DNA of 64,000 bases from Candidatus Nomurabacteria bacterium (GCA_023898465.1 CP060223.1:480001-544000), one strand, 5' to 3'. Shown: positions 23,264-64,000, counted from the first letter of the stretch. Translations and numbers: made by a program. The notes: generated by a model not told the origin, from the sequence alone.

Positions 23264-23713
23264 CTACTGTCCGCGAACCGTGAAGTCCGGTCCGCCGTTG
23301 TTGTTGGTGCACACCGCGACGACCCAAGCGTACTTGCCCGTGAAACCGCGGACGGTTTCAACTTCGTAGATGCGCTCAGCCGTGATCGCCGGCACGTTGA
23401 TGGTGAAAGTACGAAACACACGATCACTGATCTGTGACTGATACACTTTGATAGTGTATCGCCCCTCGTTCAGGGTCATAGTCCCGTACTCATTGGGATG
23501 CACGGTCAGTCTTCGCGGCGGAGTACCGTCTTGCTCGTCCGCCGCTGCATGCCGAGTGATCTCGTACGACAAGGTGTAGTTCCAGTCGTTCGAGAAGATG
23601 CCTTCCGAACCTGCGAAATCCGGTCCCGTGAGCGTGAATGCACACCCAGAGAGGAGCGACGCTACGATGCCCAGAAGAGCAACGATAGCGAAGAAACGGT
23701 TGAACACCTGCAT
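23264..23713 (-). CDS. Lipoprotein (lipobox LLSGC), GC-rich gene
   Basis: MQVFNRFFAIVALLGIVASLLSGC signal with lipobox; local GC clearly higher (about 57%) than the surrounding genome. Confidence 0.5.
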   Translation of the reverse strand: MQVFNRFFAIVALLGIVASLLSGCAFTLTGPDFAGSEGIFSNDWNYTLSYEITRHAAADEQDGTPPRRLTVHPNEYGTMTLNEGRYTIKVYQSQISDRVFRTFTINVPAITAERIYEVETVRGFTGKYAWVVAVCTNNNGGPDFTVRGQ

Positions 23714-23719
23714 TGTTCA

Positions 23720-24142
23720 TTACCTCCCAATCACCACGCCAGCAGCGTAGCGATGGTTGTAGTAGCGGAAGCTCCGTCCTTGATATGGGACGAAGAACTT
23801 TCCGTCACGTGTCTTCTTCCCATCGACGTTGAAGGATGTCCAGAGATACTTGCCCTCCGGATACCACTTCACGAAAGTCGGACATGTTCCGTCCAACGTG
23901 AATTGGTCCAGAGGATTCCTGTCAGAATCGTAGACGATCACTCGTTGCGTGAAATCCCGAAGTGGACCAGTGTTGGCGAAGATGACTTCCCCGCCTCCAG
24001 TCGACTCCACCACCTCGTGTCCATGCGCGACAGGGTTGTCGCACACGAAAACTTCGTGACAGAAGCGAGCTGTCGGTCCGCAACCCGTGAGGAGGGTCAC
24101 GCCAGCAGTCAACAACATGATGACAAAGAGCGAGCGGTTCAT
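23720..24142 (-). CDS. Lipoprotein (lipobox LLTGC), GC-rich gene
   Basis: MNRSLFVIMLLTAGVTLLTGC signal; same GC-rich islet as the neighbour. Confidence 0.5.
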   Translation of the reverse strand: MNRSLFVIMLLTAGVTLLTGCGPTARFCHEVFVCDNPVAHGHEVVESTGGGEVIFANTGPLRDFTQRVIVYDSDRNPLDQFTLDGTCPTFVKWYPEGKYLWTSFNVDGKKTRDGKFFVPYQGRSFRYYNHRYAAGVVIGR

Positions 24143-24245
24143 TTTCCTTTCCTCCGTAGCTAGAGTGCTTCCAATTGTGAACAGAGCATGATAGCATATT
24201 TTCTCTATTTTGTCAAGAGGAGTAATAAATAACCTCCAACCGAAA

Positions 24246-41186: not shown

Positions 41187-41190
41187 ATAT

Positions 41191-41736: not shown

Positions 41737-41798
41737 AGCGTATATTAGTATATCGGAAATAGGATTATTTTGTTACATCTACCAAGAAATGCTATTAC

Positions 41799-41827
41799 TT
41801 GACATTTTTTCATATCTAGTCTAGTAT
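41799..41827 (+). promoter_or_regulatory. Sigma-70-like promoter (TTGACA-17 nt-TAGTAT) driving a + strand transcript with no ORF
   Basis: Seen in sequence; predicted TSS about 41834. Confidence 0.45.
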
Positions 41828-41833
41828 ATGCAC

Positions 41834-42192: not shown

Positions 42193-42226
42193 TAAAAAGA
42201 AATCCCCAGGCCGATTGGTCTGGGGA
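42192..42226 (-). terminator. Intrinsic terminator for the minus-strand gene at 42233 (CCCCAG...CTGGGG followed by a T-run on the minus strand)
   Basis: Seen in sequence; back-to-back with the + strand terminator. Confidence 0.6.
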
Positions 42227-42232
42227 TGAGAA

Positions 42233-42679
42233 CTAGAACTGTTGTGCTGAACGCATCCGATGAAGCGTGCTACACACCAGTCCAATACCAGAGCGACGCT
42301 CTACACAGAACTGATACACCCGTTGCGCCGCCATGAGCTTTTCATAGAGCGCCTGACCATGCTTAGTGGCTAGTTCGTTTCGCATCTCCCGGTCTAGACC
42401 TTGGTAATACGAACCAAGCAGCAGATAGCGCACTAGAAGCCACCCCAGTAACCCGGAGCTGAGCAGCATCGCTGTTAAAGCACCGGGCAGAGTCAGATAC
42501 CCGAGCAAATCCTCCAGTCTTGCCCAGTAGTACACTGCAACAAGCTCAAATAGCAGAAACGCTAGCGTGGCTATAGTTGACCCTATCCGGATAAACAGGC
42601 GCCACCTTTTCACTCTCTCGCACAACTCTAGAATCTCTTCTTCTTGAACACTGAGTTGCGCGTAGAGGAAATTCGACAT
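42233..42679 (-). CDS. Hypothetical membrane protein (GC-rich; start probably MSNFLYAQ)
   Basis: Two or three TM helices; GC content like the adjacent ncRNA region rather than the flanking genes. Confidence 0.4.
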   Translation of the reverse strand: MSNFLYAQLSVQEEEILELCERVKRWRLFIRIGSTIATLAFLLFELVAVYYWARLEDLLGYLTLPGALTAMLLSSGLLGWLLVRYLLLGSYYQGLDREMRNELATKHGQALYEKLMAAQRVYQFCVERRSGIGLVCSTLHRMRSAQQF

Positions 42680-42745
42680 ATGCACCTCCCTCTTGCATAC
42701 CCAAAAGCAGTCTACACCCGCTGCACTGCAGGTCAAGCATTCAGG

Positions 42746-43528: not shown

Positions 43529-43546
43529 ACCCCCCCCTTTTTTTCT

Positions 43547-43885
43547 TTACTTAAACCGTTTGCCTAGCCACGCGCCAATCCAAACGGCAAAAAGAATAAT
43601 ACCAAAAAGAATAAGTTGCCACAACCATTGTTCGCTTTCACGCCATAGCATTAGTAGCACGAATAGTGCAGCTGGTACTAGCCAAATACCCGTCCACGCT
43701 TTCCAAAGTGATGGAAACGCAAAAGTAAAGCCAGCGCTAAAAAGCAAGTACACTGCAAAAATTATTGCTCCAGCAACTATGTAATCATTTATCCCGGCGC
43801 TATCAGAAAAAAGCACATTCAGGACGAGAAAAAATCCAAAGAGGCAGCTAAGTAGACAGGCAAGGATAATCAAAAACGTACGCAT
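43547..43885 (-). CDS. Small 4-TM membrane protein, 18 nt upstream of and co-directional with the heliorhodopsin gene (likely co-transcribed)
   Basis: 112 aa, four hydrophobic helices; 18-nt spacing to the heliorhodopsin start. Confidence 0.5.
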   Translation of the reverse strand: MRTFLIILACLLSCLFGFFLVLNVLFSDSAGINDYIVAGAIIFAVYLLFSAGFTFAFPSLWKAWTGIWLVPAALFVLLMLWRESEQWLWQLILFGIILFAVWIGAWLGKRFK

Positions 43886-43925
43886 ATACTAAAGTATATC
43901 ACTTGCCTCGGTCTTTGCGTAGTAC

Positions 43926-45614
43926 TTACTTAGGCTCTGCTACTGGATCTGTAAGCGACGCTCCTGCTGCTGCCATCTCTTCGTGTTCAGCGTCTCTAGG
44001 TAAGAAGAAGGATGCAATGAGGGTGAGTAAGGTAAAAGCAGCTGCGTAATTCATCACATCTTTGTTTGAATCAACGATTGCCTCGTACTGTAGACGGGAT
44101 AACTGCGGCAGCAGTTCAGCTGGGATGTTAGAGGTATCACCCGGTTCAGCGTTACCGAAAGTACGAGCCTGCTCCTCAATCGCTTCAATCAACTGAGGCT
44201 TCATTGCCTCAGGGATATTTACCAAGTCCTGGACGCCTGTTTCAACATGAGAGAGTAAGGAGCTTAAGAGAATCGTCCCAATAATAGCCGTACCAAGTGC
44301 CTGGCCCACAGTACGGAAGGTGGTATTTAAACCTGACGCTTGGCCAGAAAACTGCAGTGGAATAGTGGCTAAAGTAAGATTGGTAATCTGGGACATGATT
44401 AATCCAAAACCAAAGCCATACAAGGCAAGACCGGGAATCAAATCCCATTGACTCATATCAACTGAGAACTCGCTCTTGAGCACAAAAGCACTGATGAAAG
44501 AGATGAGAATGCCGAGCTGAATAATGTAGCGAGCGTGGAAGCGACCAGTGAAACGTGAGAAAAGCCCAGCGGCGATAAACAAGGCGATCGACATCGGCAT
44601 CAATGCTAGGCCCGTATCAAAGGCGCTTAAACCCAAAATAGCCTGTAGTAAAACTGGAATGGTAAAGAAGATGCCAGATTGAGCTAATACGAGAATGGTC
44701 AATGTCACAATGCCAGTGGAAAAAGCTCGATTCTGCAATATCACTGGATTCATAAGGGGCACTAAACCATCTGCACGTTGTGAACGATGTAAGCGTCGCT
44801 GCCAAAAACCAAAAAAGATGAGTATGAGCACGCCAAGGGCTACTGCTATTGGGGTAATGGAAAGGTCAAAAGGATGTATAGCAATATCGCCCATAGAATA
44901 AATCTCTTTTGCCTTCCACCAACCGTACTGACTTGCTTCCAAGAGGCCAAACACCACCGAACCAAGACCAAACGCTGACAGGATGGCGCCTAAATAATCA
45001 AGCTTCTCGCGTGAAGCATCATGCGTGCGTGGATCACGAATATAGCGAGCCAGAGCGAGAATAACTATGACAATAATCACCTCAGTAGCAAAAGCCCAGC
45101 GCCAGCTAAAATGCGTAGTCATATAACCGCCGAATAGTGGTCCAAGTGCTGCAGTCGCGCCAGCGGTGCCGCCCCAGATGCCGAAGGCAATGCGCAAATC
45201 CCTGCCGCGGTAATTCGCCAAAATAAGCGAAACAGTAGCTGGCATCATCAATGCCGCTCCAATGCCCTCAATAATTGACCAGCCTAATATCAACACATTT
45301 ACGTTCGGACTGAGTGCGGCAGTGATAGTGCCGGTCGCATACACCACTACGCCGATAAGGAAAAGCTTTTTGCGGCCATACATATCACCTATTCTGCCAC
45401 CAGTGAGCATAAAGGCTGCCATAACAAGAGAATAGATGGTGATGGCCCACTGCACATTTCGCAAGCTTGTACCGAGATCATGCACAACGTTTCGAATAGA
45501 AACATTAAGCATGGTGGTATCAAAGATGATAATCACCAAAGCAAGGCTAAGTACAACTACTAGGCCCCACTTCTGGAACCAAGCGCGAATAGGATGTGAA
45601 GTATTTGTTTCCAT
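43926..45614 (-). CDS. MFS transporter, 14-TM DHA2-like drug:H+ antiporter family
   Basis: Approximately 14 hydrophobic helices; MFS motif-A-like GRIGDMYGRKK; start probably the internal Met. Confidence 0.75.
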   Translation of the reverse strand: METNTSHPIRAWFQKWGLVVVLSLALVIIIFDTTMLNVSIRNVVHDLGTSLRNVQWAITIYSLVMAAFMLTGGRIGDMYGRKKLFLIGVVVYATGTITAALSPNVNVLILGWSIIEGIGAALMMPATVSLILANYRGRDLRIAFGIWGGTAGATAALGPLFGGYMTTHFSWRWAFATEVIIVIVILALARYIRDPRTHDASREKLDYLGAILSAFGLGSVVFGLLEASQYGWWKAKEIYSMGDIAIHPFDLSITPIAVALGVLILIFFGFWQRRLHRSQRADGLVPLMNPVILQNRAFSTGIVTLTILVLAQSGIFFTIPVLLQAILGLSAFDTGLALMPMSIALFIAAGLFSRFTGRFHARYIIQLGILISFISAFVLKSEFSVDMSQWDLIPGLALYGFGFGLIMSQITNLTLATIPLQFSGQASGLNTTFRTVGQALGTAIIGTILLSSLLSHVETGVQDLVNIPEAMKPQLIEAIEEQARTFGNAEPGDTSNIPAELLPQLSRLQYEAIVDSNKDVMNYAAAFTLLTLIASFFLPRDAEHEEMAAAGASLTDPVAEPK

Positions 45615-45715
45615 AATTGCAAAAAAATGAATGGCCGTACTCACCCGGAGCACTCCCGGATAATAACGTAACGTCAAGTATACTCGCCGCTCAATAACTT
45701 GTCGAGACTACGGCA

Positions 45716-46222
45716 TCATATCTTCCGAGCGTCATAGGCCCAGTGTAGCAGCGCCTGACGTTGCCGACGGCGACAAGCCATATCACGAGGCGCGCAATAC
45801 TTCTTGATTTGACCAACGTGACGACGAATAGCTTTCCAGCGCTTTATTTGACGCTCATCCTCCCTGGGAATACGACGGCCTGAATAATAGCGACAGTACC
45901 ATTGAAACCAACCTCGTGGATCCTCTGGATAAATCCAGCCTTTGCGCTGCCACTCTGCTAAAGATTGACTAGCGTCGACAGCAAAGAAATTGAGGTGGGG
46001 ATTATGGGTGGAGGATAATCGTGCGCCGCGAAACCATGAAGCGGGAAATTCTTTTTGACAATCATTGAGGTACTTACCCCCAAAAACACCTAGTCGCAGC
46101 ATCTGCGCAGGACTTAATTCAGGCGTAAACTCTGGAGCAAAGTTTCGGCCAGGCGCTTCTGTCCGGTAGTATGTGTAGGCCTGCTGAAAGCTATCGTTTA
46201 CTTTAACTTTTTTCTTCATAAT
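45716..46222 (-). CDS. Hypothetical basic, Cys/Trp-rich protein
   Basis: ORF; no recognised motif. Confidence 0.35.
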   Translation of the reverse strand: MMKKKVKVNDSFQQAYTYYRTEAPGRNFAPEFTPELSPAQMLRLGVFGGKYLNDCQKEFPASWFRGARLSSTHNPHLNFFAVDASQSLAEWQRKGWIYPEDPRGWFQWYCRYYSGRRIPREDERQIKRWKAIRRHVGQIKKYCAPRDMACRRRQRQALLHWAYDARKI

Positions 46223-46541
46223 CCCCTGTTGAAGCTTGCCGCACCCAGCGCTGCTCAATATAGAGCACTCGCCACCACCATCGCCCTAAGAAATACCCAC
46301 CAATCGCTCCAAGTAGTAACAAGCCAATTTGAATGTATGGTGGAAGCGCACATCCCCAGGTCCAATGTATAACCTGTCCATTTTTCTCAGCCCAGCTTAA
46401 ATACCACTGCTCAATTCCTAAATGTAACAGCAAACTTAACAGCACGCCGAACACAGTAGCGCTAATGAGATAAAGTGCATGTTTGAACGGGGTTGCTTTA
46501 AGTGGTCCGCGATGAAACATATTTAGAAAAGATTTAACCAA
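46203..46541 (-). CDS. Small membrane protein (112 aa)
   Basis: Two or three TM helices; overlaps neighbours by a few nt on both sides (operon-like). Confidence 0.4.
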   Translation of the reverse strand: MVKSFLNMFHRGPLKATPFKHALYLISATVFGVLLSLLLHLGIEQWYLSWAEKNGQVIHWTWGCALPPYIQIGLLLLGAIGGYFLGRWWWRVLYIEQRWVRQASTGDYEEKS

Positions 46542-49500
46542 CCAAAGAGGTCTTGCACTGATCCTAGGATTACCTGCACAACTGTTTGTTCTTGCTGTGG
46601 AGTAAGAATAGTCAGAGGCTCAGACACCGAGGTCTGTCCACTGGAATCCGTGCTCTCCACCTTGAACTGATACACCGAACCTGGCTCAAAACTTGTCAAA
46701 ACGACAACGTGCCGTTTCGTATAGTTTGTATCAAGTGGCGTGGCTTCGGTAATTGCTTCATCAGCACTGGCAACACCCTGTCGATAGTACACTCGACTAG
46801 TGGCTGGCTCATTTGTTAGCCAGCTGATGATGGTTTGGACTTTAGTATCACGGCCCGGGGAAAGGGCTGAGTCAGTTTGAATCTGCGAGATAAGCGGAGG
46901 CGCATTCTCATCGCCGGTCACAAAGGAGTCAAGCGTCTTGGAAACCGTATTGCCATCTGCATCAACACTTACCAACTCAATTGCGTAAGTCACTCCAGAC
47001 TCAAAACTATCTACAGTCACCTGATGAATAATGGTTTGCGTATCATCTCGAACACTGCTTAACTCATCGACCGCTTTGATGTTATTGCGATAAGGTATCA
47101 CCCGTACAGTGGCATCTGCATCACGAGTGGTGGTCCAGCGGAATACCGCTTCCTCGCTTGATATTTTTTCGACGGCATAATTTTGAATATCAAAAACCTG
47201 CGGATCAGTAGTGAAACTAAAGTCTGCACTTTGCGTTGTCTGGCTAATCTTTGTTCGACTACGCACTTGGTAATGATAGGTTGTATCAGGCTGTAAGTTG
47301 TAAACCGTAACTGAATGGGTCGTGCTATAGGTTTCCGCATCACCCACCACCTGAGTATACTGTTGTGCCAGAGCAAAGTCAGCATCTGAAGCGTAAGCTA
47401 CCAGGGCATTAGAGTCTTTATCAGTTCTCCATTGGATAGTGACTGAAGTTGGACCAACATCCACGCGAGGCTCTCCACTAATAAGCGGAGTAGGAATTAT
47501 TTTTGATAACTCCTCGATGAGTTGATACTGCTCTTCTAAACTTAGCTCTAAAATATCAATGCTAACATTGCCATAGAGATCATTCAGTAGATCAAGATTT
47601 TCTTCAAGGATATTCTTAATCTCATCAGGATTGTTTCTATCGATTGGTGCAGTGCCAGACGTAGTGAATGTTTTATCGCCGGTAATCGACGTGTTGCCGC
47701 TTGCATCAACGGAAATAACTCGATAATGATAAGTAGACCCACTGTTTAATTGTTGCAGAGTAAGGCTATGACTGGTGGCATAAGTCCAGTCACCATAAAT
47801 AGTTCCGTAAACTGTGGTAAGGCCAAATTGAATAAAGCTATTCGCTTCCTCACTTGTAGTCCAACGCACAGTGGCAGCGCTATCGCTAATGTTTACCACC
47901 TCGATGCCGGTTATGCTTGGATTTGTCTCATCCTTACTACCATCAATAGCATCTTGTTCACGTTGCTCTACATCTGATTCCTCAGACAGCATTTCTAAAG
48001 TGCTAAAGGATTTTTCTGTACTCGTTGTGCTATTACCTGAAGCATCAACTGACGAAACAGTGTAATAGTATGTCGTCTTAGGGCTGAGATTACTTAAGGT
48101 AACTAAATGGGTTAGGTTGAGACTTTCGTCTAAGCTCGTTGTAACCGTATAATTTCCCGAGCTTGTCCCATAACGCAATTGAGATGTTGCTCGCTCGTTA
48201 CTTAGCCAGGTAACTACTGCTCGAGTGTCAATGACCGGATCGGCCTGTATATTTGATAAGACTGGTGGCACTGTATCACTAGTCGTAACAAAGGAGTAAT
48301 ATTCACCACCGTTGTTATCAAAAGCTACGCCTGAGGTTACATAGTAGTAATACAGGGTACCGTTTGTCAGTCCTGATAACTTCACTAAATGATTCATCGT
48401 TGGTGGAGTATCCAGACCAACCTCAATGGCATCACTCATATCTGAATTCACTGAATAGAAGACGTGTGAATCAGACTCTACATCAGTTAACCAGCTTATA
48501 CTCGCTTCAGTATTACTCACCTCTTGCGTACTTACATTAGAAATTGCTGGACCACTTAAGGTTGTTACCGTATATCCATCACCTCCGTCAGAGTCAGTTG
48601 CCGAGTTCCCACCCGGATCCTCTGAACGAACTCTGAAATAGTACGTTGTCGAGGGATCGAGTCCGGTAAGTATGACTCGGTGAACACCAACACCTGCTTC
48701 ATTATCCATCAGAGTTGCAACACCGATAGTCGTACCAAAATCAGCTGGGGTATCTGAATATCCAATAGTAGAATCAGAGAGCTCATCTGTCTCCCAGGTA
48801 ATAGTGACCGTCTGAGTACCTATCTGACTGGTTGCTACATTTGAAATAGTTGGAGGCGTACTATCAGTACCTCCTTGTCCGTTGGCAGACTCTGAGACAA
48901 CCGCCGAGTAGTAAGAAAAATTTCCATCGCTATCTTCGCTTGATATCTTATACCAATAGCTTGTATCTGCTGTAACACTTTGATCGAGATAATAGTTAAT
49001 TGCTCTATCGCTTATGTGGCTAATCGTACTATAGCTCGTGCCGTCTGTTGAACGATACACCGTGTATTCGCTAAAGCCTGGGTCGGGCAGTGCTACTGCC
49101 TTCCAAGAAATAAAGAGTTGATAGGCATCAGCTTCTACATTACTAATATCACGAATAATCACTGTTGTTGGTGTTTCTGGTGTTACCGCTGATGCACTAC
49201 TGCTGGTATTTTTGTACGCATCACGGAAACGGACATAGACTGTATCTGGATCAGTAACCAAGGAAATAGTTGAGGAAGAGGCATAGCTTACCCACGTCGC
49301 GCCAACAAAGTCACTCCGCAAAGATACTTGCATTTCAAGGCTGCTATCATCAGAGCCGGAGAGATCGAGAGAAGCGGGGTCAGTACGTGCGTCCACCACA
49401 ATTGCCGGACTACCGAGGACTGGGTCTTTTACATCAAGAGTAAAGGCGCTTGTTTCATCGCTGGCTGTATTATTTGCTAATTCCCCATCATCAATAGTGA

Positions 49501-57404: not shown

Positions 57405-58886
57405 ATGCAACGCGCCTCCGGAGTCTTACTGCCGGTCTCTTCACTACCTAGTCCCTATGGCATTGGTGATTTTGGGCCATCTGCGTATACCTATGTAGAT
57501 TGGCTGCAGGAAGCAGGTCAGAGATACTGGACCATCCTGCCTCTCCTTATCCCTGACTCGCTGGGGTCACCCTTTAATACCGTTTCCGCCTTTGCGCTGA
57601 ATTGGCAACTTATTAGCCCGGAACTTCTGGTACAACAGAAACTCCTTGATGCAAAAACTGCTCGTGCGCTACAGAGTGATGCAAAACGAGTTCGCCATCG
57701 TGAGGTAGCGCAAACAAAACGCCGAATTTTGCACCAAGCTTGGAAATATTTCCTTCTTCATGCAAGCGCTCAGCAACGGCGTGACTTTGCTGCTTTTCAA
57801 AAGCAAGAAAAAGACTGGCTAGACGATTTTGCGCTTTATATGGCAATCAAAGAAACGCAGCGAGGTCGACCCTGGTTTCGTTGGATCAACGTCTATCGAG
57901 AACGAGATTTTAAAGCACTGCAAAAGTTTCGCGAGAAACAAAGCGATAGGATACAGCAGCACGCTTTTGGCCAATGGGTTGCTACTCAACAATGGCAGTC
58001 ATTAAAAGACTATGCCAATAAAAAAGGTGTGCGTATTTTTGGCGATCTCCCTTTCGCCGTAGCGCATGACAGCGTTGATGTTTGGAGTCATCCAGAACTT
58101 TTTTACATAAGCCCGCAGGGTAAATCCCTCCAAGTACTTGGAGTTCCACCTGATAGTTTTTCTAAAACCGGACAACTGTGGGGTTCACCGGCTTATAAGT
58201 GGAAAAAACACGCAGCTACTCACTTCCAGTGGTGGGTGCAACGCTTTGCTAAAGCAAGTCAGCTCTATGACATGCTCCGGCTCGATCATTTCCGTGGTTA
58301 CGCAGCGAACTGGGTTATTCCTGGAAAAGCAAAAACAGCCAAGGGTGGACACTGGGAAAAAGTGCCTGGTAAAAAACTCTTCCGCGCAATTCAGAAAAAG
58401 GCTCAACACCTACACTGTGTGGCCGAAGACCTGGGTGTCATAACACCGGATGTGATTGCGCTAAGGAATGCTCTTCAATTTCCCGGCATGCGCATACTTG
58501 AATTTGGCCTAAGTGATGGCAAGCGAAGTGTGCACCATCCTGATAATTATCCAATAAACTGTGTAGCCTATACCGGCACCCACGACCTCCCTCCACTCAA
58601 ACAGTGGTTCCACAATGCAAAGCGCACAAGTAAAATGAATGCGACACGCTATGGGCAGAGCGACACCCAACACATTGGGCAAAATCTCATCCACGCCCTG
58701 CTATGGAACAAAGCGAAAATAGTAATCATACAAATGCAAGACCTGCTTGCGCTTGGCCAGGGCAGCCGTATAAACACCCCAGCCACCAAGCGAAATAACT
58801 GGAGCTGGAGATTGACTTCGACCTCTCTCAGCAAAAAAACAGCGCGAGAGCTAAAAAGTCTGCTCAAAGAAACGCGTCGGATCTAG
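57405..58886 (+). CDS. malQ: 4-alpha-glucanotransferase (amylomaltase, GH77)
   Basis: N-terminus RASGVLLPVSSLPSPYGIGDFGPSAYTYVDWL, typical of MalQ; 493 aa. Confidence 0.85.
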   Translation: MQRASGVLLPVSSLPSPYGIGDFGPSAYTYVDWLQEAGQRYWTILPLLIPDSLGSPFNTVSAFALNWQLISPELLVQQKLLDAKTARALQSDAKRVRHREVAQTKRRILHQAWKYFLLHASAQQRRDFAAFQKQEKDWLDDFALYMAIKETQRGRPWFRWINVYRERDFKALQKFREKQSDRIQQHAFGQWVATQQWQSLKDYANKKGVRIFGDLPFAVAHDSVDVWSHPELFYISPQGKSLQVLGVPPDSFSKTGQLWGSPAYKWKKHAATHFQWWVQRFAKASQLYDMLRLDHFRGYAANWVIPGKAKTAKGGHWEKVPGKKLFRAIQKKAQHLHCVAEDLGVITPDVIALRNALQFPGMRILEFGLSDGKRSVHHPDNYPINCVAYTGTHDLPPLKQWFHNAKRTSKMNATRYGQSDTQHIGQNLIHALLWNKAKIVIIQMQDLLALGQGSRINTPATKRNNWSWRLTSTSLSKKTARELKSLLKETRRI

Positions 58887-58963
58887 TCTTTACTTTTCTT
58901 GTAGAATGCGATAAGTATTGTACAGATTTTGGATAGGTCGCACATTAAAATGGAGGTAATCGG

Positions 58964-59563
58964 ATGTCGCTTATTCAGGCTCGTGTACACGAGCAAATAG
59001 CCTTCAGCAATCAAGCTGATTTCACACGACTACTGCAGCGCTATCTCGTCGCGGACCAAATCCAGCCGGGGCATCAGAACGGTACAGCTGAAGTCTCGGA
59101 AAGGCCGCGGGTGGTTCGTTTTCCTGGATGCCTGGTAGTGACGGCCGCCTATCGAAACCTCGCAGTTGGAGGGATCGACCGGTCAGACCTGCACAGACTG
59201 CATCACTTGCACGCATCACTTCGCGCCGAGCTGTATGAACCTGATGAGCTGGCCCGGGTTGGATTCTGGTCGCAGACTGATCCGGCTGCCGTCGTCACTC
59301 TCACAGCCCTGGGTGGCGGGATTCAAGAGGTTCGCTTCTTCGAATCCGAATGGCAAAGGTGCGATCAAATTCCACTCTTCTTCCAACGACTCCGTGAAGA
59401 GCATGGCGATGACGCAAATATCATCGTGCTAGAAGCGGCAGCTGCGAAGGAGATGCTCGAACTGGGCATCACGCCAAAGAGCTTGCAGTGTTTCTTGGTC
59501 CAGATCGATGCCCACCGGGTTTCTGTCGTCGACAACTTCATGCCAACTTTCGTGCCCAAGTAG
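58964..59563 (+). CDS. Hypothetical protein in a GC-rich islet
   Basis: ORF with GGAGG RBS; GC about 58%; terminator follows at about 59574-59610. Confidence 0.4.
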   Translation: MSLIQARVHEQIAFSNQADFTRLLQRYLVADQIQPGHQNGTAEVSERPRVVRFPGCLVVTAAYRNLAVGGIDRSDLHRLHHLHASLRAELYEPDELARVGFWSQTDPAAVVTLTALGGGIQEVRFFESEWQRCDQIPLFFQRLREEHGDDANIIVLEAAAAKEMLELGITPKSLQCFLVQIDAHRVSVVDNFMPTFVPK

Positions 59564-59621
59564 GAGGATCTCCCAGGCCCTGAGGTAAACACTTCAGGGC
59601 CTTTTTTATTTTACGTATGAC

Positions 59622-59649
59622 TTGACAAAAGCCCTCTTTTTAGTATACT
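59622..59649 (+). promoter_or_regulatory. Near-consensus sigma-70 promoter TTGACA-16 nt-TATACT upstream of the CBM/T9SS-CTD gene
   Basis: Seen in sequence, about 70 nt upstream of the GTG start, which has GAGGAGG 8 nt upstream. Confidence 0.5.
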
Positions 59650-59718
59650 GGCCGGTCTAGAAATAGTAGTAGCTATCGAACGGAACGTATATTCACAAAG
59701 GGAAGAGGAGGCTCAAAC

Positions 59719-61161
59719 GTGGTGCAGAAGACTGCCACGGCTTGGGTCGTGGCATTCATTCTTCTGTTCTGCCACGCTCAAGCCTCGACTGCTACAGTCA
59801 CTCATTTCGTTTTTGGCATGCGCGGCAACGCGAATGTCGACGTGTGTGACAACGGCGACCTTCGCCAGTTTCACACCACGCCGGCAGGTGGACTCGTATT
59901 CACCAGTATGGGAGGTGGCGAATTCGAGATCGGTCTCGAGGGTCAAGTCAGCTGCAGTCGTGATGGAGGAGGTGGAGAAAACCTCATCCAAAACGGCGCT
60001 TTTGACCAGGGCACTTGCTCAGAATGGGAATTGGAGGACCCCAATGGACGCGCTGCAGCATCCTGTAGCAATGAGGGTCGCGTCACCGTGCAGAGTAGCG
60101 GACAATACTACGAAGTCCAGCTCAAGCAATCGATCCCGCTGATCAATGGTCAATGGTATCGTCTGAGCTTCGACGGCGACAGTAGCGTTCGCCACATCAT
60201 ACCGGTCGGAATTATCAATCCGGCCAGCTATGATTCGATCGGCCTCTGGGCTGATTGCGATCTGCACACCGATCGACGCAGCTTCGAATACCTTTTTCGC
60301 TCCAGTGAGACCATCTCTGATGCACGCTTCAGTTTCTACATTGGTGAACATCCGGCGACCTATCGTTTCGACAACGTAACGATAGTGCCGGTTGATCCCA
60401 GTGCAGACTGTTTCCGTGCTCCAGGTGAACTCATTGTGAACGGAGGGTTCGAGTGCGATCAGGTCTGCCAGCACGCTTGGCGATTCGAGGATCACTTTGG
60501 ACCCGGCTATGCTCTGTGCGATGCTGTGTCCCATAGTGGTGCTCACTCAGCCAAGCTACGACCAGCTCAAGCGGGTCAGTACTACGAAACGCAGTATCAG
60601 CAGCTTGTCACTGTCCAACAGGGACAACGCTATGAATTGCGTTTCTACGCCCGGACCAATCGTGACCCGCAGACTATTGTGGTCGAGCTGGTTGACCCAC
60701 AGAGCTTTGCGAACCGCGGACTCGTCTTTGGTCCCGTGCTCAACAGTAGCTGGACTGAGGTGCGACAAAGCTTCACTGCCAATCGTAGTGGTGTTGCTCG
60801 TCTCGGTTTTGCGGTTGGTAACTGGGACCCTGGTACTCCGGTCTGGATCGACGACGTCAGCTTGCGTCCGGTACTTAGCGTCGGAGGCGGTGACGCACAA
60901 AGCGCGACACCATCAGCCCTGGCCACCCAAGCGAACGCTGCAGTCTTTGCTCTAGAGCAACGAGCTGATGTTCGTATCAACGTCTTTGACGTGGGAGGAC
61001 GTCAAATTGCTGGCGAGTCTCGCTCCTTGTCTGCCGGGACTCATACCTACATCTGGGACGGATTGCTGCACAGCGGTGTCCGTGCTCCCAGCGGCATTTA
61101 CTTTGTCCAGGTCACCGGCGCTAGTGTCCATGCCATCAAACGCATTGTAATGGTGCGTTAG
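59719..61161 (+). CDS. Secreted protein with two CBM4/9-like (galactose-binding-like) domains and a C-terminal T9SS-type sorting domain (Por_Secre_tail-like)
   Basis: Signal peptide; LIQNGAFDQGTCSEWELED... and LIVNGGFECDQVCQHAWRFED... CBM-like starts; C-terminus ...RINVFDVGGRQIAGESRSLSAGTHTYIWDGLLHSGVRAPSGIYFVQVTGASVHAIKRIVMVR matches the T9SS CTD pattern. GC about 58%. Confidence 0.6.
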   Translation: MVQKTATAWVVAFILLFCHAQASTATVTHFVFGMRGNANVDVCDNGDLRQFHTTPAGGLVFTSMGGGEFEIGLEGQVSCSRDGGGGENLIQNGAFDQGTCSEWELEDPNGRAAASCSNEGRVTVQSSGQYYEVQLKQSIPLINGQWYRLSFDGDSSVRHIIPVGIINPASYDSIGLWADCDLHTDRRSFEYLFRSSETISDARFSFYIGEHPATYRFDNVTIVPVDPSADCFRAPGELIVNGGFECDQVCQHAWRFEDHFGPGYALCDAVSHSGAHSAKLRPAQAGQYYETQYQQLVTVQQGQRYELRFYARTNRDPQTIVVELVDPQSFANRGLVFGPVLNSSWTEVRQSFTANRSGVARLGFAVGNWDPGTPVWIDDVSLRPVLSVGGGDAQSATPSALATQANAAVFALEQRADVRINVFDVGGRQIAGESRSLSAGTHTYIWDGLLHSGVRAPSGIYFVQVTGASVHAIKRIVMVR

Positions 61162-61193
61162 AGGCTGGAACCATGCGTCAACACATCTACAAC

Positions 61194-61231
61194 AGCGCCT
61201 GAAGAGATTTACTCTCTCAGGCGCTTTTTTG
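61194..61231 (+). terminator. Intrinsic terminator GCGCCTGA...TCAGGCGC followed by T6
   Basis: Seen in sequence. Confidence 0.7.
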
Positions 61232-61287
61232 TATATGAAAAGCCGCCAAAGTTCCGAAGAAGCTTGGCGGCGAGAGACGAGGAGGGA

Positions 61288-61611
61288 TCAGGCGCCCTCA
61301 GTACTGACCTCCTCCTTCCCGCAAAGATGCAGGATGAATGACAATAGCGTGAGGAACCCGAGGATCCCGCCTGCAATAAGCAGGAACCAGCGGCCGAGGT
61401 CTCCGAAGAAACCCCGATAGACTCCTTCGATGAAGGGACGATGACCCGTGCCTTCAAACACGAGTACCGTGGGGAATCCTCCCCAAAACATGAGGAGGGA
61501 GATGATCGCAAGAGTCGCCACCGACACACCCATGGCAAAGGGCGACAGAATGATCGCCAGTCCCATGTGCTTTCCGACCAGCTTGAGCAAACCCGTAAAC
61601 AAGCGTGCCAT
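61288..61611 (-). CDS. Small membrane protein (GC-rich; start MARLFTG)
   Basis: Three TM helices; ORF. Confidence 0.4.
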   Translation of the reverse strand: MARLFTGLLKLVGKHMGLAIILSPFAMGVSVATLAIISLLMFWGGFPTVLVFEGTGHRPFIEGVYRGFFGDLGRWFLLIAGGILGFLTLLSFILHLCGKEEVSTEGA

Positions 61612-61721
61612 AATAGTATTCCTCGTATGTACCGACCTCAAAAGGTCGAGTTTGAGTCAATGTACAAAACGTATCTGGGCAATATAATAGCACATTTCGT
61701 TTATTTTGTCAATATATAAAG

Positions 61722-62996
61722 CTAAAATCTTGCTAATCTTGGCGAATTATCATGCAATACTGTGCTTGCTGCAATAGTTTTACGGAAGCCCACTCGCTCT
61801 TGCGCATGCTTCCGTACATTCCACATTGCTCCCCAACGCAACATATACGCACCATAACGCTCATGCACTCGATCAATCACTGCTTCAACAGCATCGTGAT
61901 TTACCTCGGGCCAAATCTTGAGCTGACCGCTCCTTGGGCGTAAGCGAAAAGTGCCTATGCCTAAAAAAGTAAGGAAGCGTCCATGAACTTCTGGTGCTAA
62001 CATATCCCAGGCCAATTGAAAAAGCTTTCGCCCTTCGCGTAGCCCATCACCTAACTTACGCTGTCCACCGTGTGAAGCGCCTTCAGCCATACGGGTATAT
62101 TCACTTGGCACACTGCGAGCCATTGCCCAGATGCCATGGGCTTCTAAGTTCTTCTGGCGCAATTCCCGAGCAGTCTTTTCGCAAAGCTTCATCAACACCG
62201 CTCGGTGAAAAGTGTGATCGCGCGTACGTTCACGCAAGACATGCGTATGTCCAATTGACTTCGGGTCTCGCTCCTCCTGCACACCGCCTAATTCAATCCC
62301 TTGCACATTTGCCCAGAGCTCATAGCCACGCACTCCGAGAGCCTCCATTAGATTAGTAACTGGATAGCGATAAAGATCCTCGAGAGTAAAAATACCTAAA
62401 GCATGCAGGCGACGTTCATAGCCCTTATTAATCCCCCAAGCCTCAGTCACTGGTCGGCCGGCCAAGTAGCTTGGCACCTGGCGCCGCTCAAGCACAACCG
62501 TCCCACCCTTTGGCGCAATATCAGAGGCGAACTTAGCTAACCAGCGAGTTGGTGCTACCCCAATGGAACACCGCAGCCACTCGCCCACCTCGCGAAAAAT
62601 ACGCTGACGAAAAGCCTCACCTATCTTCGCCACTTCATCAAGTGAATGGGCGTCACCAGTGAAATCAACAAAAGCCTCGTCAATTGAGTAAGGCTCGATA
62701 TCCTCAGAGTACTCAGCCATGATACGAAAAATTGCTTCAGTGGTGGAATGATACTTTGGTGGATCAACCTCTACCACCTTCAGGGCAGGATAAATGTGCA
62801 AACCATCCTTCACCCGCATACCAGTCACAATGCCTAACGCTTTTGCTTCTCGTGAAGTGGCAATCATGCAGCCTCCCGGCGCCATGGTGGCGGCAATGCC
62901 GACCGGCCGACCTCGCAACTTCGGATTCGCCTGCTGCTCGACTGAGGCGAAATACGAGTTCATATCGAAATGGAGAATGAGGCGAGAATGAGACAT
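61722..62996 (-). CDS. dinB: Y-family DNA polymerase (DNA polymerase IV-like)
   Basis: ILHFDMNSYFASVEQQANPKLRGRPVGIAA with catalytic D-x-D...E, little-finger region; 424 aa. Confidence 0.85.
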   Translation of the reverse strand: MSHSRLILHFDMNSYFASVEQQANPKLRGRPVGIAATMAPGGCMIATSREAKALGIVTGMRVKDGLHIYPALKVVEVDPPKYHSTTEAIFRIMAEYSEDIEPYSIDEAFVDFTGDAHSLDEVAKIGEAFRQRIFREVGEWLRCSIGVAPTRWLAKFASDIAPKGGTVVLERRQVPSYLAGRPVTEAWGINKGYERRLHALGIFTLEDLYRYPVTNLMEALGVRGYELWANVQGIELGGVQEERDPKSIGHTHVLRERTRDHTFHRAVLMKLCEKTARELRQKNLEAHGIWAMARSVPSEYTRMAEGASHGGQRKLGDGLREGRKLFQLAWDMLAPEVHGRFLTFLGIGTFRLRPRSGQLKIWPEVNHDAVEAVIDRVHERYGAYMLRWGAMWNVRKHAQERVGFRKTIAASTVLHDNSPRLARF

Positions 62997-63136
62997 ACGA
63001 TTACTTAACTAGATTGACAAAACAAGCTTATGGGTGGTAAGTAAGAGGACTGTCTGATGCCCCTGAATCGGGTGTCTGTGAGCACTTACTCACATCCGTG
63101 GTGGAGACAGTGTTCCTTACACAGGAGGTAAAACCT

Positions 63137-63655
63137 ATGAGTCGCAAGAGTGCTCACCAAACGAGGACTCCATCAGACATCAACGAAGAATCACCCTTTC
63201 TCAGAACGCTCTACTATTCCTTGATGAAGTGGAGTACGGTCCCGAGGAAAGAGATCGTGCCCGAACTACAGGACGAAATGAGACTGCGAGCTGAGACAAT
63301 GGGTCTCAGCGTCACTCTCTCCAGCGGCGTTCAGGGACCGAGCTACACCGACGTCGTGCTTGGGCTTTACGTCCTGCTGACCCGTAGCTACGTCGAGAGG
63401 TCTATCCAGAACATCATCTGGGGAGTCCTGGGTCACTGCACAAATCATCAGTTCGCCAAGTTCATCCGTTTGACCAACGCGCGGCACAACCCTAATCCCG
63501 AGAGCAGGACAAGGGCGATGAGGGCGCTCTATGAAATCGCTTCATTGGGCCATAGTCGCTGGCTCAATGTTGGGAAGTCCTGGCAACGGGGCGCGAGGTG
63601 GCGCATGAACGAGCTGATCAACTCTGGTCGCTTCGAGGCCCCAATCTATTGGTAA
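63137..63655 (+). CDS. Hypothetical protein (GC-rich; start MSRKSAHQ with AGGAGG RBS), followed by an intrinsic terminator at about 63666-63700
   Basis: ORF, RBS, terminator AGCCCAG...CTGGGCT followed by T7. Confidence 0.4.
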   Translation: MSRKSAHQTRTPSDINEESPFLRTLYYSLMKWSTVPRKEIVPELQDEMRLRAETMGLSVTLSSGVQGPSYTDVVLGLYVLLTRSYVERSIQNIIWGVLGHCTNHQFAKFIRLTNARHNPNPESRTRAMRALYEIASLGHSRWLNVGKSWQRGARWRMNELINSGRFEAPIYW

Positions 63656-63698
63656 GGAAGCTACATAGCCCAGACACTCCGGTGTGCTGGGCTTTTTT

Positions 63699-63884
63699 CT
63701 ACTTCACAAACTCCACCTTTTCACACTCACTGCAATACATAGGCTTCATCGCATGCGTCACAAAGGAAGGTAAAGCACGCATAGGCTTAGCGCATTGACT
63801 GCAGCGCTTTGTGCCCCGCTCCTGTTTTGTTTCTCGAATCGTACGCGGTGTCATATATTTTCGTTTGCCCTCCATAGACACCAT
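63699..63884 (-). CDS. Small Zn-ribbon protein (CSQC...CSEC)
   Basis: Two CxxC pairs; 61 aa. Confidence 0.3.
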   Translation of the reverse strand: MVSMEGKRKYMTPRTIRETKQERGTKRCSQCAKPMRALPSFVTHAMKPMYCSECEKVEFVK

Positions 63885-64000
63885 TCCAAGCGTATGGTGT
63901 CAAAACAAAGATCAAAAGTGTTGTCCTGGCTTGAAACAGCAAAATGATAATAAAGCTTATTGCCATCTCGGCGCCGATAGGTCAGATTCACCCGCTCCAC

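What the first reader, a model, noticed from the sequence alone, without database searches (positions are those of the whole stretch)
58950..61700. GC-rich islets carrying secreted and lipoproteins, one with a T9SS-type C-terminal sorting domain, in an otherwise low-GC, monoderm-like genome
At least four segments are visibly GC-enriched (about 55-58% against about 42-48%): about 22950-24200 (two lipoproteins plus a hairpin-dense leader), about 41860-42740 (ncRNA plus membrane protein), about 58950-61700 (a hypothetical protein, a CBM4/9 x2 protein with a Por_Secre_tail-like CTD, and a membrane protein) and about 63100-63700. Each is bracketed by intrinsic terminators and has good sigma-70 promoters or RBSs. 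A T9SS sorting tail is meaningful only in diderm FCB-type bacteria, whereas heliorhodopsin and the overall gene content point to a monoderm or CPR-like host. This indicates horizontal acquisition from a higher-GC diderm donor, or a chimeric contig.
Basis: partly seen in the sequence, partly recalled or inferred. Interest (0 to 1): 0.55.

Follow-up and report, generated by a model that had tools for sequence, protein, structure and literature searches.

The report
Acquired GC-rich gene islets in CPR bacterium
A tiny, outer-membrane-less "Candidatus Nomurabacteria" genome carries small GC-rich gene cassettes inserted between conserved genes. One encodes a secreted sugar-binding protein whose tail resembles the sorting signal of a secretion system this bacterium should not have. 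This is real horizontal gene gain, not an assembly error, and of a kind already documented in this group.

Summary
Eight ORFs in GC-rich islets have GC3 of 0.56-0.70, against 0.410±0.046 for 53 backbone genes (z 3.2-6.3).

The window is a closed Ca. Nomurabacteria (Patescibacteria/CPR) chromosome that also encodes a heliorhodopsin.

The contig is not chimeric:
- Three short-read contigs from the source samples match at 99.9-100%.
- An 85-90%-identical lineage from another sample is collinear across the malQ/islet junction.

A more distant relative (L007) has malQ and dinB 43 nt apart. In the window, 2.8 kb with three GC-rich genes lies between them. So the islets are lineage-specific insertions. 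They show no mobility hallmarks.

The 480-aa protein has a signal peptide, a small N-terminal domain, two CBM_4_9 domains, a linker and a C-terminal Ig-like domain. That tail passes the FlgD_ig threshold and is borderline for the T9SS type A model (20.5 or 25.1 bits against a cutoff of 23). Its named relatives are T9SS sorting domains of FCB candidate phyla.

The tail is under purifying selection (dN/dS 0.095). It therefore most likely works without a T9SS, as a structural or adhesion module.

The direct donor is unknown, and a higher-GC Patescibacterium is as plausible as a diderm. Gene islands of this kind are already documented in this phylum, so interest is modest.

The parts
58964..59563 (+). 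hyp199: GC-rich orphan ORF of 199 aa with no signal peptide and no family match. It is the first gene of the islet.
   Evidence: GC3 0.595, z 4.0. No Pfam, NCBIfam, PHROG or PADLOC hit. The ortholog in L003 is 64% identical with dN/dS 0.165, so it is a real gene. Absent from L007 and L008.
59575..59602 (+). Intrinsic terminator after hyp199.
   Evidence: 12-bp stem followed by a T-run. Folding energy -21.7 kcal/mol, z -5.8.
59622..59649 (+). Sigma-70-like promoter of the CBM gene (TTGACA-16-TATACT). An SD sequence GAGGAGG follows at about 59705-59711.
   Evidence: 11/12 match. The -35 box CTTGACAAAA, the SD and the GTG start are conserved in L003 and in the distant homologue's contig L005.
59719..61161 (+). 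CBM480: a secreted tandem-CBM glycan-binding protein of 480 aa. It starts at a GTG; NCBI calls it as 470 aa.
   Evidence: Pfam CBM_4_9 x2 and FlgD_ig. AlphaFold model pLDDT 72.9, with best fold matches to tandem CBM22, B. thetaiotaomicron SGBP-B and CBM4. dN/dS 0.081 against L003. GC3 0.565.
59719..59784 (+). Sec-type signal peptide, residues 1-22 (MVQK / TATAWVVAFILLFC / HAQA|S).
   Evidence: Read from the sequence. An N-terminal helix spans residues 4-17 in the model. Cys18 is invariant in P0017, but the lipobox is non-canonical, so lipidation is uncertain.
59977..60402 (+). CBM_4_9 domain 1, residues about 87-228.
   Evidence: Pfam reports two stretches. pLDDT 80-90 with a beta-jelly-roll fold. 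44% identical to P0017.
60403..60873 (+). CBM_4_9 domain 2, residues about 229-385.
   Evidence: The best Pfam stretch is residues 237-366. CBM4 structures 1gui and 2y64 align with target TM-scores of 0.72-0.75.
60931..61158 (+). C-terminal Ig-like domain, residues 405-480, of the FlgD_ig / T9SS type-A sorting-domain superfamily.
61194..61231 (+). Intrinsic terminator after the CBM gene.
   Evidence: Hairpin of -24.1 kcal/mol, z -7.3, followed by UUUUUU.
61242..61271 (-). Intrinsic terminator of the minus-strand membrane ORF.
   Evidence: Hairpin of -18.5 kcal/mol, z -3.4, followed by UUUU.
61288..61641 (-). memb117: GC-rich small membrane ORF (117 aa; 107 aa as called in Logan).
   Evidence: GC3 0.669, z 5.7. 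Two to three hydrophobic 19-mers. The L003 counterpart is only 29% identical, so turnover is rapid or the gene was replaced. Not annotated at NCBI.
61684..61712 (-). Sigma-70-like promoter of the membrane ORF (TTGACA-17-TATTAT, with extended TG).
   Evidence: 11/12 match.
57405..58886 (+). malQ (GH77 4-alpha-glucanotransferase): the backbone gene on the left of the islet.
   Evidence: PF02446, 518 bits. GC3 0.443. In L007 it lies tail-to-tail with dinB, 43 nt away.
61722..62996 (-). dinB (Y-family DNA polymerase IV): the backbone gene between two islets.
   Evidence: IMS 130.7 bits and IMS_C. GC3 0.475. The closest relatives (65% and about 50% identity) are all Patescibacteria.
63098..63655 (+). 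hyp185: a second GC-rich orphan islet, between dinB and the conserved 58-aa and 86-aa genes.
   Evidence: GC3 0.683, z 5.9. Missing in L003, where 359 nt stand in place of 728 nt, and missing in L007, which has a 219-nt gap.
23264..24142 (-). Islet with two GC-rich orphan lipoproteins (149 and 140 aa).
   Evidence: GC3 0.70 and 0.66. Lipoboxes LLSGC and LLTGC. No family hits.
42233..42736 (-). Islet with a GC-rich small membrane ORF, next to the heliorhodopsin gene.
   Evidence: GC3 0.565. Hydrophobic segments. Contiguity confirmed at 99.9% by Logan contigs L070 and L071.

Best explanation
The GC-rich segments are small gene cassettes gained in this lineage. Each carries its own expression signals. 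They sit in intergenic gaps of a conserved backbone (mnmA-hyp381-holin-malQ | dinB | 58aa-86aa | TrwB) in a Candidatus Nomurabacteria (Patescibacteria) chromosome.

They were most likely acquired by horizontal transfer from donors of about 55-60% GC. The main islet was acquired before the window lineage and the L003 lineage split. hyp185 is present in the window lineage only.

The main cargo is a Sec-exported, non-catalytic glycan-binding protein. It consists of a signal peptide, a small beta domain, two CBM_4_9 jelly-rolls, a Ser/Ala/Gly linker and a C-terminal Ig-like beta-sandwich.

The tail descends from the FlgD_ig / T9SS type-A sorting-domain family typical of FCB-group diderms. In this host it is inferred to work without a T9SS, as a structural, oligomerisation or surface-adhesion module of an extracellular lectin. 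Such a lectin plausibly acts in glycan capture or in attachment to a partner cell.

**Shown:** the composition anomaly, contiguity, insertion relative to relatives, the domain architecture and purifying selection.

**Inferred:** horizontal transfer as the mode of gain, the donor type, glycan binding, and the T9SS-independent role of the tail.
For: - **Composition.** Islet GC3 lies 3.2-6.3 sd above 53 backbone genes, and the tetranucleotide signature is atypical.
- **Host identity.** NCBI labels the proteins Candidatus Nomurabacteria. The nearest DinB relatives are Patescibacteria. Heliorhodopsin is present.
- **Contiguity.** L001 shows 0 mismatches over 5124 nt and continues into SecDF, sigma-70 and TrwB genes of normal GC. 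L004, L070 and L071 match at 99.9-100%. L003, from another sample, is collinear across the malQ/islet junction.
- **Insertion.** In L007, dinB (2359-3633) and malQ (3677-5161, reverse strand) are 43 nt apart and there is no hyp185. L008 has 119 nt where the window carries the GC-rich 132-aa ORF.
- **Real, functional genes.** dN/dS is 0.081 for CBM480, 0.095 for its tail and 0.165 for hyp199.
- **Architecture.**
- **Tail family.**
- **Cysteines.** Cys43, Cys79, Cys231 and Cys246 are invariant between P0001 and P0017. This fits an extracytoplasmic, disulfide-bonded protein.
- **Precedent.** HGT and genomic islands are documented in Patescibacteria, with Bacteroidota over-represented among outside donors (PMC12455944).
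Against: - No integrase, transposase, tRNA, flanking direct repeats or phage, plasmid or viral relatives mark the islets, so the insertion mechanism is unknown.
- No donor was found. The full-length family has only two 90%-identity clusters in 5.8 billion proteins.
- Loss in L007 and L008, rather than gain here, is not formally excluded.
- Glycan binding and the role of the tail rest on homology only.
- The whole genome could not be screened for T9SS or outer-membrane genes.
- The tail's TIGR04183 score straddles the cutoff, so calling it a sorting domain is itself borderline.
Confidence: 0.68

Rival explanations
1. The contig is chimeric or misassembled. On this reading the GC-rich segments belong to another, higher-GC organism and were joined to the CPR genome by the assembler.
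For: The composition shifts abruptly at the malQ stop. Both Logan contigs L001 and L002 begin exactly at window 58877. The deposited record's ends appear to fall inside the islet, judging from accession order.
Against: - L001 links the islet at 100% identity to 6 kb of normal-GC CPR genes (TrwB, DUF8128, sigma-70, SecF, SecD).
- L003, from an unrelated sample and assembly, spans malQ, hyp199, CBM, dinB and beyond in the same order with the same GC step.
- L071 spans islet 2.
- Backbone genes (dinB, 58aa, 86aa) are interleaved with the GC-rich ORFs.
Confidence: 0.02
2. The gene came recently and directly from an FCB-group diderm that has a T9SS. On this reading the sorting tail is a decaying, functionless relic in the new host.
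For: The profile of the tail retrieves proteins that NCBI names 'T9SS type A sorting domain' from KSB1, Cloacimonadota, Marinimicrobia and Zixibacteria. All 19 aligned relatives hit TIGR04183. The subfamily's PNPF motif is lost here. Bacteroidota are known donors to Patescibacteria (PMC12455944).
Against: - The tail is the best-conserved part of the protein between the two lineages (97% identity, dN/dS 0.095). It is 41% identical to P0017, the same as the CBMs.
- The cassette is not recent. It is shared by lineages with dS 0.33-1.5.
- The promoter -35 box, the SD and the GTG start are conserved with the 42%-identical homologue.
- No close diderm homologue exists. The next best hits are 26-34% identical.
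Confidence: 0.12
3. The genes are native and only unusual in composition. The islets would be old residents, or ORFs born de novo from GC-rich spacers, that relatives have lost. High GC3 would reflect local mutation or selection bias rather than transfer.
For: - There are no mobility hallmarks.
- All the islet ORFs except CBM480 are orphans.
- GC-rich DNA generates long ORFs by chance.
- GC varies widely within the clade: L007 0.435 and L008 0.541.
Against: - GC3 of 0.56-0.70 in eight separate ORFs, against a backbone maximum of 0.513, is hard to produce in place.
- CBM480 has clear distant homologues and a modular architecture.
- hyp185 differs in presence or absence between lineages about 90% identical.
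- The syntenic sites are empty in both available relatives.
Confidence: 0.15
4. The host does have an outer membrane and a T9SS, so the tail is a working sorting signal.
For: The tail lies at the extreme C-terminus behind a flexible linker, follows a Sec signal peptide, and is under purifying selection. This is exactly the layout of T9SS cargo.
Against: - The host is a 1.08-Mb Patescibacterium.
- Heliorhodopsins are reported absent from diderms (10.1101/356287).
- The T9SS is described as confined to the FCB superphylum (PMC12398890).
- No T9SS or outer-membrane family appears among about 60 proteins in 71 kb.
- No other tail-bearing ORF appears in the window or in about 300 kb of related Patescibacteria loci.
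Confidence: 0.02

Closest known systems
T9SS type A C-terminal sorting domains (TIGR04183 / PF18962), in the FlgD_ig-like subclass found in FCB candidate phyla (KSB1, Cloacimonadota, Marinimicrobia, Zixibacteria)
   Same: - Sits at the extreme C-terminus behind a linker, on a protein with a Sec signal.
- About 75 residues forming an Ig-like beta-sandwich.
- Shares the motifs G-x-H-x3-WDG, SG-x-YF and a terminal K-x4-R/K.
- The isolated domain scores 25.1 bits against a cutoff of 23.
- The profile hits the CTDs of PorU, PorZ, NucA and RgpB.
   Different: - The full-length score is below the cutoffs (20.5 against 23; Pfam 13.9 against 27).
- The N-terminal PNPF strand motif is missing.
- The host is a Patescibacterium, in which no T9SS is expected.
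- No second tail-bearing protein was found nearby.
FlgD Ig-like domain (PF13860) of the flagellar hook-cap protein
   Different: There is no FlgD N-terminal domain and no flagellar gene in the neighbourhood. The domain is appended to carbohydrate-binding modules on a secreted protein.
Non-catalytic tandem-CBM surface glycan-binding proteins, such as B. thetaiotaomicron SGBP-B (7kwb) and the CBM22-1/CBM22-2 tandem of Paenibacillus Xyn10C (4xup)
   Same: Two consecutive CBM4/9/22-type jelly-rolls with no catalytic domain, exported to the cell exterior. These are the top Foldseek hits.
   Different: Sequence identity is only 13-16%. The ligand is unknown. There is no SusC/D context, lipoprotein anchor or glycoside hydrolase partner beyond the unrelated neighbouring malQ.
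Horizontally acquired genomic islands and single-gene transfers in Patescibacteria (PMC12455944)
   Same: Compositionally atypical accessory genes in a streamlined CPR genome. The cargo is surface or membrane biased. An FCB-type domain fits the reported Bacteroidota-to-Patescibacteria transfers.
   Different: The units here are very small (0.5-2.8 kb, one to three genes). They lack integrases or other mobility genes. They are scattered in several intergenic gaps rather than forming one island.

Membership tests
T9SS type A sorting domain (TIGR04183 / PF18962) | HMM score at or above the curated cutoff | tested here: inconclusive
   TIGR04183 gives 20.5 bits in the full protein and 25.1 bits for the isolated residues 395-480, against a cutoff of 23. 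Pfam PF18962 gives 13.9 bits against a GA of 27.
T9SS type A sorting domain (TIGR04183 / PF18962) | Domain at the extreme C-terminus of a protein that has an N-terminal Sec signal peptide | tested here: met
   The domain ends at the last residue (480), after a low-confidence linker at 387-404. The signal peptide was read from the sequence (MVQK, a hydrophobic core, then AQA|S). No dedicated predictor was available.
T9SS type A sorting domain (TIGR04183 / PF18962) | Ig-like beta-sandwich fold like solved T9SS CTDs | tested here: met
T9SS type A sorting domain (TIGR04183 / PF18962) | Host encodes the T9SS machinery (GldK/L/M/N, SprA/Sov, PorV, PorU) and an outer membrane | not testable with these tools
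   Only 71 kb of the 1.08-Mb genome could be read, and it holds none of these. The host is labelled Ca. Nomurabacteria. By established knowledge, CPR bacteria lack an outer membrane and the T9SS is confined to the FCB group (PMC12398890).
T9SS type A sorting domain, FCB candidate-phyla subclass | Conserved N-terminal (Y)PNPF(N) strand motif | tested here: not met
   The motif is present in 14 of the 19 aligned tails. It is replaced by PSALATQAN in P0001 and by ESKLPVTAS in P0017.
FlgD_ig (PF13860) | Pfam gathering score | tested here: met
   29.6 bits against a GA of 27, over residues 405-468.
Flagellar hook-cap protein FlgD | FlgD N-terminal domain and a flagellar gene context | tested here: not met
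   Only the Ig-like part matches (NF005176 22.8 bits against a cutoff of 230). There are no flagellar families in the window.
CBM_4_9 (PF02018) carbohydrate-binding module | Pfam gathering score and a jelly-roll fold | tested here: met
   61.4 bits against a GA of 25.9, in two stretches. Fold matches to CBM4 and CBM22 structures have target TM-scores of 0.7-0.75. Ligand binding was not tested.
Horizontally acquired genomic island | Atypical composition relative to the host genome | tested here: met
   GC3 z of 3.2-6.3, and the lowest tetranucleotide correlation in the window.
Horizontally acquired genomic island | Absent from the syntenic site in related genomes | tested here: met
   In L007, malQ and dinB are 43 nt apart. 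hyp185 is absent from L003 and L007. The 132-aa ORF is absent from L008.
Horizontally acquired genomic island | Mobility hallmarks: integrase or transposase, adjacent tRNA, flanking direct repeats | tested here: not met
   There are no such Pfam families. The only tRNA is at 14.9 kb. No flanking repeats rise above chance. There are no phage, plasmid or viral relatives.
Horizontally acquired genomic island | An identifiable donor lineage | tested here: not met
   Only one distant full-length homologue exists, on a contig of unknown taxonomy. Scans of genome, metagenome and viral collections found none.

The most novel reading that the evidence does not exclude
The T9SS-type tail is not a passive leftover. 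A Patescibacterial episymbiont would keep it because it still engages T9SS-related surface biology. One option is that it docks onto PorV, A-LPS or the T9SS-decorated surface of an FCB-group host cell, so the lectin would bridge symbiont and host. More broadly, FlgD_ig/T9SS-A-like tails may be a recurrent, T9SS-independent surface module in CPR bacteria. An M23-peptidase-CBM_4_9-tail protein in a 33%-GC contig with CPR-like gene content hints at this, but that contig's taxonomy is unresolved.
Probability: 0.07. Interest if true: 0.75.

Novelty: new member of a known kind. Interest (0 to 1): 0.33.

Why it matters
This is a clean, well-bounded example of how ultra-small CPR genomes renew their cell-surface repertoire. 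Single-gene cassettes of foreign composition, each with its own promoter and terminator, drop into intergenic gaps of an otherwise syntenic backbone without any visible mobile-element machinery.

The CBM-CTD protein shows that a domain normally read as a T9SS sorting signal can persist under purifying selection in a bacterium expected to have neither an outer membrane nor a T9SS. Two cautions follow. Secretion systems or diderm status should not be inferred from such tails in metagenome bins. Nor should such genes be used as evidence of bin contamination.

If the lectin mediates attachment, it could point to the still unknown partner of this Nomurabacteria lineage.

Tried and rejected
- **Genome-contig scans.** With alignment A2 it found no relative, not even the source genome.
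- **Metagenome-contig scan.** With A2 it returned only remote CBM hits of 23-34% identity.
- **Mobile-element searches.** Viral-contig scans with A2, hyp199 and hyp185 found nothing. BLAST of the islet DNA and the CBM protein against plasmids and phages found nothing. PHROG and PADLOC scans of all islet ORFs gave only one marginal hit of unknown function.
- **Repeat search.** No target-site duplications or terminal inverted repeats turned up, only chance-level matches.
- **Exact look-ups.** malQ and the holin are not on record in the contig index, so the source record's coordinates could not be read.
- **Taxonomy of the nearest CBM-CTD relatives' contigs (L072, L073/L075).**
  - Cluster look-ups returned no organism names.
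  - No tRNAs were found.
  - tBLASTn against the held loci was uninformative.
- **SD-motif frequency as a phylum discriminator.** Dropped, because the window itself scores only 11 of 51 with crude ORF starts.
- **TrwB as a transferred gene.** It is 87% identical to L008 at the amino-acid level, but its GC3 is native (0.42) and nucleotide identity is only 75%. Rejected.
- **Fold searches.** They do not separate FlgD from T9SS CTDs. The afdb50 library was unavailable.
- **Literature.** Searches found no report of T9SS-type tails in CPR bacteria.

Full report

Yes. In 1-kb windows GC rises from about 0.45-0.48 to 0.51-0.56 between 58.5 and 61.5 kb. There are further rises at 23-24.5 kb, 41.5-43 kb and 62-64 kb.

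The signal is at synonymous sites. 53 backbone genes in the window plus its 7-kb extension have GC3 of 0.410±0.046, with a maximum of 0.513. The ORFs in the islets reach 0.56-0.70, which is z 3.2-6.3.

The correlation of tetranucleotide z-scores with the rest of the sequence is lowest at 57-66 kb (0.27-0.34, against 0.44±0.07). The GC-rich zone extends about 1 kb beyond the window end.

**2. What organism is this?**

Exact-sequence look-ups identify the window's proteins as USN53991-USN54044 and USN53053. All are 'MAG... [Candidatus Nomurabacteria bacterium]' on a single 1,082,586-bp contig. This is a closed Patescibacteria (CPR) chromosome.

The gene content fits:
- a heliorhodopsin (329 bits);
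- TrwB/VirD4-like ATPases and PMT_2 glycosyltransferases;
- LiaF, a holin, large LVIVD/fn3 and S8/FG-GAP surface proteins, and many ORFans.

Heliorhodopsins are reported absent from diderms (bioRxiv 10.1101/356287). The closest DinB relatives in 185,579 species genomes are all Patescibacteria, at 65% and about 50% identity.

**3. Is the contig chimeric?**

No.
- Logan contig L001 (SRR12358676, 18.4 kb) equals window 58877-64000 with 0 mismatches over 5124 nt. It continues through TrwB, DUF8128, a sigma-70 factor, SecF and SecD at normal GC.
- L004 and L002 are 100% identical over their overlaps.
- L070 and L071 match 40981-47047 at 99.9%, including the islet next to the heliorhodopsin gene.
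- L003 comes from a different sample (SRR17818317) and is 85-90% identical at the nucleotide level. It is collinear from inside malQ through hyp199, the CBM gene, a small membrane ORF and dinB, and it shows the same GC step.

Accession order suggests that the deposited record's two ends lie between the CBM gene and dinB. The Logan contigs bridge that point.

**4. The islets are insertions.**

Relative L007 (JAZDMR010000009.1, GC 0.435) keeps the backbone order 86aa-58aa-dinB-malQ-holin-hyp381-mnmA. There, dinB (2359-3633) and malQ (3677-5161, reverse strand) are tail-to-tail only 43 nt apart. In the window, 2,835 nt with three GC-rich genes lie between the two stop codons.

The other gaps show the same pattern:
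- L007 has 219 nt between the 58-aa-like ORF and dinB, and L003 has 359 nt. The window carries the 185-aa GC-rich ORF there.
- L008 (CAZWTD010000001.1, GC 0.541) has secF-sigma-DUF8128-TrwB-86aa-dinB, with 119 nt where the window lineage carries a GC-rich 132-aa ORF.

Three separate intergenic gaps of a conserved backbone therefore each hold GC-rich orphan cargo.

No integrase, transposase, nearby tRNA or flanking repeat accompanies the islets. There are no PHROG or PADLOC families and no phage, plasmid or viral relatives.

**5. The cassettes are expressed units and real genes.**
- A 12-bp terminator follows hyp199 (-21.7 kcal/mol, z -5.8).
- An 11/12 TTGACA-16-TATACT promoter and a GAGGAGG SD precede the GTG start of the CBM gene.
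- A strong terminator follows the CBM gene (-24.1 kcal/mol, z -7.3).
- The convergent membrane ORF has its own 11/12 promoter and its own terminator.
- There is no terminator between malQ and hyp199, so 'bracketed by terminators' is only partly true.

Against L003, dN/dS is 0.165 for hyp199 (dS 1.46), 0.081 for the CBM gene (dS 0.33), 0.065 for dinB and 0.086 for malQ. The membrane ORF is only 29% identical to its L003 counterpart.

Identity along the locus is mosaic:

| Segment | Nucleotide identity to L003 |
|---|---|
| hyp199 | 67-71% |
| CBM gene | 88-97% |
| membrane ORF | 41-60% |
| dinB | 81-96% |
| hyp185 | absent from L003 |

This marks the locus as a hotspot of turnover.

**6. The 480-aa protein.**

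Reading the sequence together with the AlphaFold model (pLDDT 72.9) gives this layout:

| Residues | Feature |
|---|---|
| 1-22 | signal peptide (AQA\|S) |
| 26-73 | small, poorly predicted beta domain |
| about 87-228 | CBM_4_9 jelly-roll 1 |
| about 229-385 | CBM_4_9 jelly-roll 2 |
| 386-404 | disordered Ser/Ala/Gly linker |
| 405-480 | beta-sandwich |

Pfam scores the CBM_4_9 pair at 61.4 bits. Foldseek's best matches are the CBM22 tandem of Xyn10C, SGBP-B of B. thetaiotaomicron and CBM4 modules.

There is no catalytic domain, transmembrane helix or LPXTG motif. Four cysteines outside the signal peptide are invariant in the 42%-identical homologue. This fits an extracytoplasmic, disulfide-bonded protein.

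The most likely function is a secreted or surface-associated lectin.

**7. The C-terminal domain.**

Sequence scores:
- Pfam FlgD_ig 29.6 bits (GA 27) and Por_Secre_tail 13.9 bits (GA 27).
- TIGR04183 20.5 bits in the full protein and 25.1 bits for the isolated domain, against a cutoff of 23.

In a 19-sequence alignment with the tails of the nearest hits, it shares G-x-H-x3-WDG, SG-x-YF and the terminal K-x4-R. It lacks the PNPF motif.

The alignment profile gives:
- all 19 members hitting TIGR04183 and the PorU CTD;
- PDB hits to FlgD (E 5e-9), PorU (1e-5), T9SS cargo CTDs 8glk and 8glj, PorZ and RgpB;
- 962 database proteins, of which the named ones are 'T9SS type A sorting domain-containing protein' from KSB1, Cloacimonadota, Marinimicrobia and Zixibacteria.

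Among the homologues, the domain occurs singly at the extreme C-terminus in 29 proteins and as internal tandem repeats in 7 giant proteins. It also serves as a general Ig-like building block.

**8. Selection and rarity.**

The tail is the most conserved part of the protein between the two Nomurabacteria lineages (97% identity, dN/dS 0.095). It is as conserved as the CBMs in the distant homologue P0017, at 41%.

The full-length family is tiny. It consists of the P0001 cluster (four near-identical members) and P0017, out of 5.8 billion clustered proteins and 1.84 billion representatives. No member was found in the genome, metagenome or viral collection scans.

P0017 lies on 2.2-kb contigs of 58% GC (gene GC3 0.71). 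These share the -35 box, SD sequence and GTG start.

No other tail-bearing ORF occurs in about 1 Mb of fetched loci, which includes about 300 kb from Patescibacteria.

**9. Interpretation.**

The islets are horizontally gained accessory cassettes, biased towards envelope proteins (two lipoproteins, two small membrane proteins and the lectin).

The proximal donor is unknown. It could equally be a higher-GC Patescibacterium, for two reasons:
- L008 shows that such relatives exist.
- Published work finds 83% of transfers into Patescibacteria to be intra-phylum, with Bacteroidota and Omnitrophota the over-represented outsiders (PMC12455944).

The T9SS is described as specific to the FCB superphylum (PMC12398890), and CPR bacteria lack an outer membrane by established knowledge. 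The conserved tail is therefore best read as a T9SS-independent structural or adhesion module.

Whole-genome absence of T9SS genes could not be tested here.

**10. Novelty.**

Genomic islands and HGT in Patescibacteria are documented, so this is a new member of a known kind.

The modestly surprising element is a T9SS-type tail kept under purifying selection in a CPR bacterium. No paper in the searchable library reports this.

There is a hint of wider use. An M23 peptidase-CBM_4_9-tail protein sits in a 33%-GC contig that also has type IV pilins, PilD, GatCA and many ORFans. Its taxonomy is unresolved.

Noticed in passing
window 61162-61721: NCBI accession order puts the CBM protein last (USN54044) and DinB first (USN53053). 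The window therefore seems to wrap around the two ends of the deposited circular record inside the islet. The 117-aa membrane ORF at 61288-61641 is not annotated at NCBI, probably because it straddles or abuts the junction. Logan contigs L001 and L004 span it at 100% identity.
   Followed up: partly
window 63851-64000, continuing to L001 5235 (L001 4975-5235, minus strand): An 86-aa ORF with no Pfam match lies just upstream of dinB in 17 of the 18 full-length Patescibacteria dinB loci fetched. It is 98.8% identical to its L003 counterpart (dN/dS 0.02). It is a candidate conserved DinB-associated factor in CPR bacteria.
   Followed up: partly
window 18239-20581; L001 5820-9011; L008 5843-8485 and 18544-20955: TrwB/VirD4-like coupling-protein genes recur in this genome. 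In L001 and L008 each is paired with a DUF8128 gene. One copy lies right next to the GC-rich zone, and L008 has two pairs. The first 420 residues are 87% identical to L008, while neighbouring genes are about 60% identical.
   Followed up: partly
No Rfam family reaches its gathering score there. The only RNA gene found in the window is tRNA-Gln at 14914-14987.
   Followed up: partly
window 27052-30439: A 284-aa ORF with no Pfam hit, a 134-aa ORF that is only an HATPase_c domain, and an overlapping 688-aa ORF lie next to two response regulators. This may be a split or frameshifted histidine kinase, or wrong ORF starts.
   Followed up: no
L073 10001-12610; L075 17213-19822: An 869-aa protein combining an M23 peptidase, CBM_4_9 and a Por_Secre_tail-like tail sits in a 33%-GC contig. 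That contig also has type IV pilins, PilD, LigA, GatC/A, LGT and many ORFans. The gene content looks CPR-like, but the taxonomy could not be established. If it is CPR, such tails would be recurrent in the phylum.
   Followed up: partly
window 58877: Both Logan contigs from the source samples (L001, L002) start at exactly this base, 10 nt before the malQ stop. This indicates a branch in the assembly graph at the islet's left edge. The likely cause is strain microdiversity, since L070 and L071 differ from the window by about 0.1%.
   Followed up: partly
window 58153-64768 compared with L003: Divergence between the two lineages is mosaic. dS is about 1.0-1.5 for malQ and hyp199, but 0.33-0.47 for the CBM gene and dinB, and 0.20 for the 86-aa gene. 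This suggests recombination between lineages or very different constraints along the locus.
   Followed up: partly
window 59770-59772 (Cys18 of the 480-aa protein): The cysteine at the end of the signal-peptide hydrophobic core is invariant in P0017 (LLFC and ISLC). These are non-canonical lipoboxes. N-terminal lipid anchoring cannot be excluded, and it would solve the question of how the protein stays on the cell.
   Followed up: no
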